Shown here one piece after another: positions 6,589-9,500 of a stretch of 64,000 nt of DNA. Source of the DNA: an uncultured Alphaproteobacteria bacterium. GTDB taxonomy: Bacteria; Pseudomonadota; Alphaproteobacteria; CAIYWZ01. Position numbers: made by a program. Position 1 is the first letter of the stretch. Each line of letters opens with the position of its first letter. The DNA is taken from assembly GCA_964497925.1 (NCBI GenBank), contig CAZCFE010000001.1, forward strand, positions 6,460-70,459. The letters run 5' to 3'.

Positions 6589-9500
6589 AATCCCTGTTAC
6601 ACCCACCATTTTACATCAAAGCTATTTGACCCAATACGTCATTTACATGACCCTCAACTTTTACAGGCCTCCATATGTATGCTATTTTTCCTTCTTCATT
6701 GATCAAAAACGTTGATCTTTCAATTCCTCTGACTTTTTTGCCATACATATTTTTTTCAATCATTACGCCGTAAAGACTACAGATTATTTCATCCGTATCA
6801 GACAACAAAGAAAAATTCAGATCATATTTTTTCTTAAATTTCACATGACTTTTTACATCATCGCGCGAAACACCTAAAACAATCACTCCCTTCTCTTGAA
6901 TATCTAAAAATGAGTCTCTAAAATCACAAGACTCTATTGTGCATCCAGGAGTGTCATCTTTTGGATAAAAATAAAGAACAATCTTCTTCCCTTTAAAATC
7001 TGACAATGAAACCTGGGATCCATCATCACACAAAACTCTAAAATCTGGCGCTGTATCTGATATATTTAACATTTTTTTTACTCCTCTGATATTAAATTAA
7101 AATAACTACTTTCTCATTTGTCACGTGCACAAACCCTTCTAAAATCTCAATAGATTTTATATCCTTTCCTAGTTTGTACTTCAAAAACCCTTGAAAGACT
7201 CGTCCCATTATCGGCTCATGCCCAGCATAAATAGTCACTTGACCTTCTTCCATAAAAAAAGAAACCCATTCTACATGCTTCTCAACCAAAACTTTAGATA
7301 CATCTTTAACATGAAGTAATAACATAAATTCAACCCTTTTTGTATAACTGATCCGGCAAAAATCCGCCAATCTGCGCAGACCACATTTTCTTATATAGCC
7401 CCTCTTGATGAAACAAATCCTCATGAGATCCGTCTTGCACAATACGCCCTTGATCAAAAACAATAATTCTATCCATATCCAAAATCGTTGAAAGTCTATG
7501 AGCAATAACCAGAGTTGTGCTCATTTCCATAAGACCTCTCAAACTTTCCTGAATTGATTGTTCAGTCAAAGAATCCAGCGCTGAGGTGGCCTCATCGAGC
7601 AATAGAATGGGGGCCTTTTTTAAAATCGCTCTAGCAATTGCAATTCTTTGACGTTGTCCCCCTGAAAGCTTTGTCCCTCTCTCACCAACACGTGTGTCAT
7701 ATCCATTCTCCATCTGCTCGATGAATTCATGAGCATGTGCAAGCTTTGAGGCGCTGATGACTTCTTCCAAAGACGCATCAGGTCTTGCATACCAAATATT
7801 TTCAATCACCGTTCTGTGAAAGAGCGCGGGGTCTTGAGGAATCAATGAAATAGATTGGCGAAGCGATTCTTGAGAAATATTTTTAATATCGTGATGATCA
7901 ATCATAATTGTTCCGGACTCAATGTCAAAAAGCCTTAAAATTAAATTCACAAAAGTAGACTTCCCGCTTCCTGAATACCCAACCAATCCAACTTTTTCAC
8001 CTTGACCGATCTTAACATTAAGTCCATCAAAAAGCGGAGATAGTTTCTTATAACCAAAAACAACATCACAAAACTGAATATCCCCTTTAGGCATTTTGAA
8101 GTCTTGAGGAATAAGTATATCTTGAATTTTATGTGATTGAGTAATCACGCGGAGCCCTTGAGTTGCTTTCCCTAAATGCTCTACAAAGTCTGCAACATCT
8201 TTTGAAAATGTCCACATATTTTCAATAATCGCCCCATTGAGCCCTAATATTAAAGCAAAATCACCCACACTCGTATAGCCTTGTTTCCAACCTTGAATCA
8301 AAACGTACAAACAAAGAGCCTCAACAACCAAAAAAGATATTCCCTGAAATGCCCATATTTTCAGAAAAAACCATTCTAATTTCTGTTCATGAATAAGACG
8401 ATCCTGTGTCCAGTTTTGAATATTTTTAATCTCTTTATTTTTACCTGAAAACAAACGAACGGACATAATATTAGAAAATACATCCACGACTTTTCCAGTT
8501 AATATGGTGCCTTTTTCAGATGCAACGTCAGAAAGATGTTTTCCTTTTTTGCCACATAAAAATGCCACCAAAAGCAAACTTAAAGCCCAAACGCTTGAAA
8601 TTAAACCAAATTTAAAGTCAACATAATACAGCGTTCCAATTACAACACAGAGCATCAAAATACGGCTAAAAAGCTTATCTGCAAAAATCACAATTAACTC
8701 ACGCACACCAAGAGCAACATCGTTAATTTTATTCATCAAACTTCCAGAAAAATTATCTTGAAAAAATGAATGATCGTGCCCTATTACATGCTGAGTTAGC
8801 TTTAGAGTTATTTCCTGCTTAATACTGGGGCCAATTTTTAAAATACAGTAATCATACAATCGATAAGATAAAACAACAAACACCGTCCATCCAAGTAAAA
8901 TATAAACAAAAAAAACAGCATGCTCTAAAACTTCCTGGTTATATCCAAGACTCAATGTGTCCAAAATTAATTTAACAAGATAAGGACGCAATGCGCTTTC
9001 AATAGCCCATAAAGCACCAATGATGAAAACACCTAAGATATATAGACGAAAAGGCTTTGCTGCTTGATAAATAAATTTTAACATATGCTTATTCTTCACT
9101 TGATCGTAAATTTAAAAAAACAATGTATCATATTTGTTCAAAAACATCCAGAGTTAACGTTTTTCAATAGGGATAAATGATCTGACCACATCACCCAAAT
9201 AAAGCTGTCTCGGCCTCCCAATTTTCTGTTTTGGATCTTCCATCATTTCCTTCCATTGAGCAAGCCACCCAACCGTTCTTGAAACGGCAAACAATACTGT
9301 GAACATTGATGTTGGAATTCCCATTGCGCGAAGAACAATCCCAGAATAAAAATCAACATTAGGATAAAGTTTGCGCTCAATGAAATATTCATCCTCTAAC
9401 GCTATTCTTTCAAGCTCAATTGCAAGCTCTAACAAAGGATCATCTTTAATTCCCAGCTCATCCAAAACATCATGACATAGTTTACGCATAATAGCTGCTC

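What the first reader, a model, noticed from the sequence alone, without database searches (positions are those of the whole stretch)
7092..7325. Stand-alone ATP synthase epsilon gene lacking the C-terminal inhibitory helical domain
A 78-aa ORF between the ABC exporter and bcp aligns along its full length with the N-terminal beta-sandwich of F1 epsilon. It shares the EG..IY.GH.P motif and the ...L.GF.HV....V..L terminal strand. The stop is only 19 nt from the bcp start and no C-terminal two-helix hairpin can be encoded in any frame. It is also not next to atpD. Epsilon's C-terminal helices mediate ATP-dependent auto-inhibition of ATP hydrolysis. An epsilon reduced to the rotor-binding domain, or a second truncated paralog, would change ATPase regulation, which is relevant for an energy-parasitic endosymbiont.
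Basis: partly seen in the sequence, partly recalled or inferred. Interest (0 to 1): 0.6.

Follow-up and report, generated by a model that had tools for sequence, protein, structure and literature searches.

The report
Stand-alone, helix-less ATP synthase epsilon gene
A 77-residue gene encodes only the rotor-binding half of the ATP synthase epsilon subunit and sits behind an ABC exporter gene instead of in the ATP synthase operon; this layout is conserved in a small clade of AT-rich alphaproteobacteria, and it is an unusual variant of a known protein rather than a new kind of system.

Summary
Window 7092-7325 (minus strand) encodes a 77-aa protein. It matches Pfam ATP-synt_DE_N above the curated cut-off. 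Its high-confidence AlphaFold model superposes on solved epsilon N-terminal domains at about 1 Å. No C-terminal helical domain can be read in any frame. The window has no alpha, beta, gamma, a or c subunit genes.

It is not a sequencing artefact. Three other assemblies carry the same protein. Five further lineages carry a 77-81-aa (or apparently frameshifted) homologue ending at the same last beta strand, always outside an atp operon. In five of the six lineages the gene starts 3-4 nt after the stop of one particular MsbA-like ABC exporter gene. More distant homologues of that exporter have no epsilon gene behind them.

The family keeps the residues that are conserved in all epsilon subunits. 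However, it evolves 2.5-8 times faster at non-synonymous sites than its neighbours (omega about 0.1-0.2).

Most likely this is the clade's relocated atpC, reduced to the rotor-coupling domain. I could not obtain the rest of any genome, so a second, diverging paralogue is not excluded. Epsilon subunits without the helical domain already exist inside atp operons elsewhere. Interest is modest.

The parts
7092..7325 (-). 77-aa epsilon-like ORF, coordinates including the stop. It encodes a complete F1 epsilon N-terminal beta-sandwich and no C-terminal helices.
   Evidence: Pfam PF02823, 41.6 bits, E 1.2e-10. AlphaFold2 pLDDT 96 with nine strands. Foldseek against PDB gives TM 0.92-0.94 and rmsd 0.7-1.1 Å to epsilon N-terminal domains. 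Six-lineage family alignment.
7326..7338 (-). Junction between the ABC exporter and epsilon. A Shine-Dalgarno-like AAGGG (7338-7334) lies inside the last codons of the exporter gene, followed by the TGA stop (7332-7330) and a 4-nt spacer (7329-7326) before the epsilon ATG. The layout suggests translational coupling.
   Evidence: Read from the sequence. The same 3-4-nt junction with a purine-rich SD occurs in L005, L008, L011 and L015.
7330..9099 (-). MsbA-like (HI_1051-like) half-transporter ABC exporter, called 'ABC1' here. It is the conserved upstream neighbour of epsilon.
   Evidence: Pfam ABC_membrane + ABC_tran. No NCBIfam model reaches its cut-off. Orthologues at 66-85% identity precede epsilon in L005, L008 and L015, and in L011/L012 an exporter C-terminal fragment (77% identical over 57 aa) precedes it. 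Homologues at 49-52% do not.
7073..7091 (-). 19-nt spacer between the epsilon stop and the bcp start. It contains the SD AGAGGAG (7087-7081). No terminator was found, so the two genes are probably co-transcribed.
   Evidence: Sequence. No terminator-like or strong promoter-like site lies between 7072 and 9154 on the minus strand apart from one internal promoter-like match, and the site counts in the 6300-10800 scan do not exceed the shuffled-sequence expectation.
6611..7072 (-). bcp-type peroxiredoxin, the downstream gene of the presumed transcription unit.
   Evidence: Pfam AhpC-TSA, 132.9 bits. The same gltA-ABC1-epsilon-bcp order is found in the close relative L015.
9154..10464 (-). Citrate synthase, 54 nt upstream of ABC1 on the same strand. 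It may be the first gene of the unit.
   Evidence: ORF list. Identified as citrate synthase by eye from the translation, not by a domain search. The homologous C-terminal fragment in L015 is 92% identical.

Best explanation
This is the atpC gene (F1 epsilon subunit) of a small clade of AT-rich, probably host-associated alphaproteobacteria. In the ancestor of that clade the gene lost the C-terminal two-helix domain and came to lie outside the atp operon, directly behind an MsbA-like ABC exporter gene. It is expressed with that gene through a 3-4-nt, SD-containing junction; in this genome it sits in a gltA?-ABC1-epsilon-bcp unit.

The product is a bare nine-strand beta-sandwich. It would bind the foot of gamma and the cytoplasmic loops of the c-ring, complete the central rotor and couple proton flow to catalysis. 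Having no helices, it cannot adopt the extended 'up' state, so it provides no epsilon-mediated inhibition of ATP hydrolysis and no ATP sensing.

Shown here: identity of the fold, absence of the C-terminal domain, the gene's position, conservation across six lineages, and purifying but relaxed selection. Inferred: that an F1Fo complex exists in the genome, that this is its only epsilon, and that it binds gamma and c.
For: Domain and fold:
- Pfam hit above the cut-off. The best NCBIfam matches are all epsilon equivalog models, matched over their N-terminal half only.
- The AF2 model (pLDDT 96) matches the epsilon N-terminal domains of E. coli, PS3, Pseudomonas, chloroplast and mitochondrial delta with TM 0.84-0.94.

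Conserved family:
- An exhaustive HMMER search of 1.84 billion representative proteins finds only three clusters at E<1e-10. All are 77-80 aa.
- With the profile search, the exporter-guided genome scan and an exporter-homologue look-up, six lineages are known. All end at the last beta strand.
- The window gene is identical in three other assemblies.

Same constraints as a canonical epsilon:
- The residues invariant in canonical epsilon (V18, G28, H36, G64), nearly invariant (L4, G46, F65) or highly conserved (I32, L76) are also invariant or nearly invariant in the family.
- Per-column conservation correlates with that of canonical epsilon (Spearman 0.47, p 1.5e-5).
- The best-conserved segment (residues 18-41, 68% mean pairwise identity) is the G-x-x-x-I-x-x-G-H-x-P loop region. 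From my memory of E. coli cross-linking work, this region faces gamma and the c-ring.

Selection: omega is about 0.07-0.19, so selection is purifying.

Independence from the exporter: one lineage (L004) keeps epsilon without the ABC exporter. Four more distant exporter homologues have no epsilon behind them.

Precedent: epsilon subunits of only 77-79 aa sit directly after atpD in other bacteria, so an N-domain-only epsilon is a working solution in nature. Engineered C-terminal deletions still support rotation or turnover (PMC5990651; PDB 8yh8).

Partners expected: COQ7, polyprenyl synthase and citrate synthase in the window imply a respiratory chain, and hence an F1Fo to serve.
Against: No other ATP synthase gene could be examined from any of the six lineages, so neither 'an F1Fo exists' nor 'this is the only epsilon' has been shown.

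The protein evolves unusually fast for a core rotor subunit:
- L005 vs L008: Obg 96%, L27 98%, L21 99% and ABC1 81.5% identity, but epsilon only 64%. dN is 0.24 against 0.03 for Obg and 0.12 for ABC1.
- Window vs L015: GltA 92%, ABC1 85% and Bcp 83% identity, epsilon 65%. dN is 0.23 against 0.045-0.097.

The otherwise universal proline of the GH-x-P motif is replaced in two lineages.

The tight, conserved junction with one particular ABC exporter in five of six lineages, while the downstream neighbours differ in almost every lineage, could instead reflect a functional tie to the exporter.

All NCBIfam epsilon equivalog cut-offs are missed, including those of the short models.
Confidence: 0.6

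Rival explanations
1. It is a second, clade-specific epsilon paralogue. A normal atpC remains next to atpD elsewhere in the genome. This copy lost its helices and is diverging, either as an alternative rotor subunit used under certain conditions or towards a new role.
For: It lies outside any atp operon in all six lineages. Its non-synonymous rate is 2.5-8 times that of its neighbours. The conserved motif proline is lost in two lineages. It scores far below every NCBIfam epsilon cut-off.
Against: Stand-alone epsilon paralogues are not a known class. Second epsilon genes normally come with a whole second operon (N-ATPase; from my own knowledge). The family keeps the canonical invariant residues and the canonical conservation profile. 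Nothing in the window, L005 or L008 hints at a second copy, although those stretches are small.
Confidence: 0.22
2. It is an epsilon-derived beta-sandwich recruited as an accessory protein of the HI_1051/MsbA-like ABC exporter. It is translated in step with the exporter and acts on or with it, not on F1Fo.
For: The 3-4-nt junction, with the SD inside the exporter's last codons, is kept in five of six lineages. The downstream neighbour, by contrast, differs between them: bcp, DUF2608, PolyA_pol, START. The protein evolves fast.
Against: Lineage L004 keeps epsilon behind rplU with no exporter gene. Four exporter homologues at 49-52% identity, including the complete genome of Ca. Nucleicultrix amoebiphila, have unrelated genes downstream. 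The residues conserved in the family are the ones conserved in genuine epsilon subunits. There is no precedent known to me for an epsilon domain working with an ABC exporter.
Confidence: 0.08
3. It is a decaying remnant: either the last atp gene left in genomes that have lost ATP synthase, or a truncated pseudogene.
For: Elevated dN. The close relative L015 shows a 1-nt poly-A indel that cuts off the last strand, and another indel in ABC1.
Against: The ORF is intact, of the same length and ends at the same structural boundary in five lineages separated by saturated synonymous divergence. Omega is well below 1. A complete, confidently folding domain is retained. The window carries ubiquinone and TCA-cycle genes. 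The L015 indels are both in homopolymer runs of a single short-contig assembly and may be errors.
Confidence: 0.05

Closest known systems
Canonical bacterial F1 epsilon subunit (AtpC; Pfam PF02823 + PF00401; e.g. E. coli 1AQT, Bacillus PS3 2E5Y)
   Same: Same N-terminal beta-sandwich: TM 0.92-0.94 and rmsd about 1 Å. Same invariant residues. Presumably the same rotor-coupling job.
   Different: It has no C-terminal two-helix hairpin, so no up/down switch, no ATP binding and no auto-inhibition. The gene is not behind atpD. Identity is only about 23-36% (23-28% to the solved epsilon chains, up to 36% to the best canonical database hits). The protein evolves faster than its neighbours.
Naturally short epsilon subunits inside atp operons (here P0007, 77 aa, and P0008, 79 aa; NCBIfam short models NF009983 with 88 positions, NF009985 with 101, NF009977 with 102)
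   Same: The protein is the N-terminal domain only, 77-81 aa, ending at the last strand. This shows that such an epsilon can be the working subunit.
   Different: Those genes follow atpD directly. They share only 27-30% identity with this family. The window protein scores 21-24 bits against the short NCBIfam models, whose cut-offs are 80-112. This is therefore an independent loss of the domain in a different lineage, combined with relocation of the gene.
Alphaproteobacterial non-inhibitory epsilon, with the zeta (DUF1476) inhibitor
   Same: Alphaproteobacterial setting: a Tim44-like protein, COQ7 and the record title of the related MAG. PMC9317440 reports that the alphaproteobacterial epsilon C-terminus is non-inhibitory, dispensable and truncated in most members.
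   Different: Here the truncation is complete rather than partial. Whether a zeta gene exists could not be checked; PMC9317440 reports zeta absent from Rickettsiales and Holosporaceae.
Engineered epsilon C-terminal deletions (Bacillus PS3 stop after D87, PDB 8yh8; E. coli and Paracoccus truncations)
   Same: The end point is essentially the same as in the laboratory constructs. The 87-residue PS3 chain is the best sequence match in the PDB, and the alignment runs to within one residue of the window protein's end.
   Different: This is a natural, conserved gene rather than a construct.

Membership tests
F-type ATP synthase epsilon subunit (AtpC) | N-terminal beta-sandwich domain (Pfam ATP-synt_DE_N, PF02823) | tested here: met
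   41.6 bits against a gathering score of 27, covering profile positions 8-76 of 80. The AF2 model and Foldseek put epsilon chains at the top, TM 0.92-0.94.
F-type ATP synthase epsilon subunit (AtpC) | C-terminal alpha-helical hairpin (PF00401). It is present in most members but not all. | tested here: not met
   The ORF ends at the last beta strand. No frame continues. No C-terminal-domain hit anywhere in the window.
F-type ATP synthase epsilon subunit (AtpC) | Score above the curated NCBIfam equivalog cut-off (TIGR01216 or the PRK models, including the short ones) | tested here: not met
   Best is TIGR01216, 39.4 bits against 67.25. The short models NF009983, NF009985 and NF009977 score 21-24 bits against cut-offs of 80-112.
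F-type ATP synthase epsilon subunit (AtpC) | Gene located in the atp operon, directly after atpD | tested here: not met
   No alpha, beta or gamma gene in the window, L005 or L008; Fo a/c and alpha/beta signature motifs were scanned in the window only. The upstream neighbour is an ABC exporter or rplU in all six lineages.
F-type ATP synthase epsilon subunit (AtpC) | Partner subunits (alpha, beta, gamma, c) encoded in the same genome, with this being the epsilon of that complex | not testable with these tools
   The rest of the source assemblies could not be fetched.
F-type ATP synthase epsilon subunit (AtpC) | Conservation of the residues shared by all epsilon N-terminal domains | tested here: met
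   L4, V18, G28, I32, H36, G46, G64, F65 and L76 are kept in all or nearly all members. P38 is lost in two of six.
Accessory protein of an ABC exporter (hypothetical class) | Co-occurrence with the exporter wherever either gene is found | tested here: not met
   L004 has epsilon without the exporter. Four exporter homologues at 49-52% identity lack epsilon.

The most novel reading that the evidence does not exclude
The clade carries a normal atpC elsewhere, and this fast-evolving, helix-less epsilon copy has been recruited to a non-F1Fo role tied to the translationally coupled HI_1051/MsbA-like ABC exporter. That would be the first example of the epsilon beta-sandwich being reused outside rotary ATPases.
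Probability: 0.08. Interest if true: 0.7.

Novelty: new variant of a known kind. Interest (0 to 1): 0.3.

Why it matters
If this is the only epsilon of these bacteria, they are a natural, conserved epsilon C-terminal-deletion experiment within the Alphaproteobacteria, the class from which mitochondria arose. That would support the view that the alphaproteobacterial epsilon C-terminus had become dispensable (PMC9317440). It would also leave MgADP inhibition, or an unknown factor, as the only brake on ATP hydrolysis.

It also shows that atpC can be uncoupled from the atp operon and put under the expression control of an unrelated exporter gene. Annotators should note that the gene falls below every NCBIfam epsilon cut-off. 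It could therefore be called 'hypothetical', making ATP synthase look incomplete in pathway reconstructions of such MAGs.

Tried and rejected
- **Sequencing error or truncation:** rejected. The ORF is identical in three other assemblies, and six lineages share the same end point.
- **Longer 137-aa ORF from TTG at 7505:** rejected. It overlaps the exporter's 3' end, and all homologues start at the Met right after the exporter's stop.
- **Hidden C-terminal domain in another frame or elsewhere in the window:** none found.
- **Other atp genes in the window:** none found by tblastn or by motif scan.
- **Scans with the epsilon alignment:** the genome-contig scan and the first metagenome-contig scan found nothing. 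The second metagenome scan found only two ordinary full-length epsilon genes in high-GC bacteria, one of them directly after atpD.
- **Scan with the exporter's membrane domain:** this found the one GTDB genome that carries the pair, MAG CAIYWZ01.
- **Cluster look-up for organism names:** no names returned.
- **Literature search by SRA accession and for 'atpC Holosporales':** no papers.
- **AFDB fold search to list organisms with short epsilon:** library not available.
- **Structure prediction with the 4-sequence alignment:** The 3-sequence alignment was used instead.
- **Specific subfamily for the exporter:** none reached a cut-off.
- **dN/dS:** synonymous sites are near saturation (dS 0.6-3.5), so omega values are rough. 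The contrast in dN between genes is the robust part.
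Full report
**What is there**

On the minus strand of the window, an ATG at 7325 opens a 77-codon frame closed by TAA at 7094-7092. It lies 4 nt after the TGA of a 589-aa ABC_membrane+ABC_tran exporter gene (7330-9099). It lies 19 nt before the ATG of an AhpC/TSA (bcp-type) peroxiredoxin gene (6611-7072). Citrate synthase (9154-10464) is 54 nt further upstream on the same strand.

A Shine-Dalgarno-like AAGGG sits inside the last codons of the exporter gene, and AGAGGAG sits in the 19-nt spacer. 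No terminator-like site separates the genes. The four genes therefore look like one transcription unit, with epsilon translationally coupled to the exporter. That coupling is inferred.

**Is it epsilon, and is it complete?**

- Pfam assigns ATP-synt_DE_N at 41.6 bits (gathering score 27, E 1.2e-10) across profile positions 8-76 of 80.
- All thirteen NCBIfam matches are F1 epsilon models, and each matches only through its N-terminal half. For that reason none reaches its full-length cut-off.
- The best PDB sequence matches are epsilon chains. The top one is the 87-residue C-terminal-deletion construct of Bacillus PS3.
- AlphaFold2 on a three-sequence alignment gives pLDDT 96 and nine strands.
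- Foldseek against the PDB returns epsilon (and mitochondrial delta) chains throughout the 50 listed matches. TM-scores are 0.92-0.94 and rmsd 0.7-1.1 Å over 75-77 residues.

The product is therefore a whole epsilon beta-sandwich and nothing more. The three frames downstream are closed or belong to bcp. Full-length epsilon queries find no C-terminal domain anywhere in the 64 kb.

**Not an artefact, but a small conserved family**

The same protein occurs in three independent Logan assemblies, with 0-1 nucleotide differences in the gene. An exhaustive HMMER pass over 1.84 billion representative proteins finds only three clusters at E<1e-10, all 77-80 aa. A profile search adds two more. A scan of GTDB genomes guided by the exporter's membrane domain shows that one of these sits in MAG CAIYWZ01, 'uncultured Alphaproteobacteria bacterium T8_bin-474'. 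A look-up of the closest exporter homologue adds a sixth lineage.

| Lineage | Gene order around epsilon |
|---|---|
| Window | gltA-ABC1-eps-bcp |
| L015 | gltA-ABC1-eps-bcp |
| L011/L012 | ABC1-eps, then a convergent PolyA_pol gene |
| L005 | obg-rpmA-rplU (opposite strand), hypothetical, ABC1-eps, then a convergent DUF2608 gene |
| L008/L013/L014 | as L005 |
| L004 | rplU (opposite strand), eps, START-domain gene; no exporter |

All intact members end 0-3 residues after the last strand. None is near an alpha, beta or gamma gene. GC content is 35-40% throughout.

**The exporter link is real but clade-limited**

The exporter orthologues are 66-85% identical to the window copy over their full or near-full length in L005, L008 and L015; for L011/L012 only a 57-aa C-terminal fragment is available, 77% identical. 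In five of six lineages the epsilon ATG follows the exporter's stop by 3-4 nt, with the SD inside the exporter's last codons. The downstream neighbours, by contrast, differ between lineages.

The pairing does not extend further. L004 lacks the exporter. Four homologues at 49-52% identity are followed by unrelated genes: a JGI contig, the complete Ca. Nucleicultrix amoebiphila genome, a Rickettsiaceae MAG and a 'Proteobacteria' MAG. The exporter itself is a generic MsbA/HI_1051-like half-transporter with no specific family assignment. It is widespread in intracellular bacteria. I therefore read the pairing as inherited synteny plus shared expression, not as evidence that epsilon is a subunit of the exporter.

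**Selection**

The family keeps the residues that are invariant or nearly so in canonical epsilon: L4, V18, G28, I32, H36, G46, G64, F65 and L76. Its per-column conservation tracks that of canonical and short in-operon epsilons (Spearman 0.47, p 1.5e-5). The best-kept segment is residues 18-41, around the G-x-x-x-I-x-x-G-H-x-P motif. From my memory of the E. coli cross-linking literature, that region faces gamma and the c-ring.

The protein nevertheless evolves fast.

| Pair | Identity of neighbouring proteins | Epsilon identity | dN of epsilon vs neighbours |
|---|---|---|---|
| L005 vs L008 | Obg 96%, L27 98%, L21 99%, ABC1 81.5% | 64% | 0.24 vs 0.03 (Obg), 0.12 (ABC1) |
| Window vs L015 | GltA 92%, ABC1 85%, Bcp 83% | 65% | 0.23 vs 0.045-0.097 |

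Synonymous sites are near saturation, so omega (about 0.07-0.19) is approximate. It is clearly below 1, yet higher than for the neighbours. Two lineages have replaced the motif proline. The protein is under purifying selection, but a relaxed one.

**Interpretation**

The most economical reading is a relocated atpC reduced to its rotor-coupling domain. Several points make this plausible.

- N-domain-only epsilons of 77-79 aa sit directly behind atpD in other bacteria, and NCBIfam curates short epsilon models.
- Laboratory C-terminal deletions remain functional (PMC5990651; PDB 8yh8).
- In alphaproteobacteria the C-terminus is reported as non-inhibitory, dispensable and truncated in most members, with zeta taking over the inhibition and itself being lost in Rickettsiales and Holosporaceae (PMC9317440).
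- The window points to an alphaproteobacterium that keeps ubiquinone-dependent respiration: a Tim44-like protein, COQ7, a polyprenyl synthase and citrate synthase. An F1Fo is therefore expected.

What I could not do is look at the rest of any of these genomes. A second, canonical atpC next to atpD therefore cannot be excluded. The fast rate and the exporter junction keep that rival alive. I put about 0.6 on the sole, relocated epsilon. I put about 0.3 on a paralogue, of which about 0.08 is a recruited exporter partner. I put about 0.05 on a relic.

**Comparison and novelty**

It works like, and by fold is, an epsilon N-terminal domain. It fails three ancillary membership criteria: the C-terminal domain, the operon position and the NCBIfam cut-offs. 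The decisive criterion, partner subunits in the same genome, was untestable.

It is closest to the naturally short in-operon epsilons. It shares only 27-30% identity with those found here and scores far below the short NCBIfam models. It is therefore an independent domain loss combined with gene relocation, in a clade that is rare in public data: six lineages among billions of proteins. That makes it a new variant of a known kind.

A specialist would find it a useful natural example rather than a surprise. Interest is 0.3.

Noticed in passing
L015:1253-1300 and L015:2720-2745 (Logan ERR14822395): A close relative of the window organism (GltA 92% identical) has 1-nt indels in poly-A runs in both the ABC exporter gene and the epsilon gene. 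The indels split the exporter into two ORFs and cut off the last epsilon strand. They could be homopolymer sequencing errors or real decay of the pair in that strain.
   Followed up: partly
window 5419-6030 (+) and 6040-6405 (+): A 203-aa protein with a signal-peptide-like N-terminus contains an internal duplication: the motif RTCF..(Q/K)I(M/I).SL..G..TL.(Y/F)NKK(D/E)Y.IDQS occurs twice. It is followed by a 121-aa lipoprotein-like ORF. Neither has a Pfam match.
   Followed up: no
window 16890-18473 (+): A 527-aa protein has an N-terminal hydrophobic segment and long (PA)n / (RA)n and Pro/Ala/Thr-rich low-complexity stretches. It has no Pfam match. It may be a surface or secreted protein.
   Followed up: no
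window 15074-16177 (-), 30181-30825 (-), 32860-35366 (+), 56155-57645 (+), 58696-59850 (-): A set of genes typical of host-associated bacteria: a patatin-like phospholipase, an ankyrin-repeat protein with a signal peptide, two tandem MFS permeases overlapping by 4 nt, an AMP nucleosidase and a Trp/Tyr permease. No ATP/ADP translocase is present in the window.
   Followed up: partly
window 42757-44895 (-): A single 712-aa ORF fuses a C-terminal-processing S41 protease (with PDZ domain) to a 'divergent polysaccharide deacetylase' domain. These are usually separate neighbouring genes.
   Followed up: no
window 24347-25622 (-): RapZ and a PTS EIIA(Man)-type protein lie adjacent, with no other sugar-PTS component in the window. 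They are probably the regulatory (nitrogen-type) PTS remnant common in alphaproteobacteria.
   Followed up: no
window 27495-29288 (+): A 597-aa coiled-coil-rich protein (Glu/Lys/Gln-rich) has a signal-peptide-like start. Its C-terminal stretch 'LKVHPDKQGGSTEAFQAL' resembles the HPD motif of J-domains. It has no Pfam hit at E<=0.001. It may be a secreted effector.
   Followed up: no
L016:7938-12192 and L021:142-3786: More distant homologues of the exporter sit in quite different settings. One lies beside integrases and an IS240 transposase; another lies beside an MbtH-like protein and other genes of secondary-metabolite flavour. This fits a horizontally mobile exporter family shared among intracellular bacteria.
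   Followed up: no
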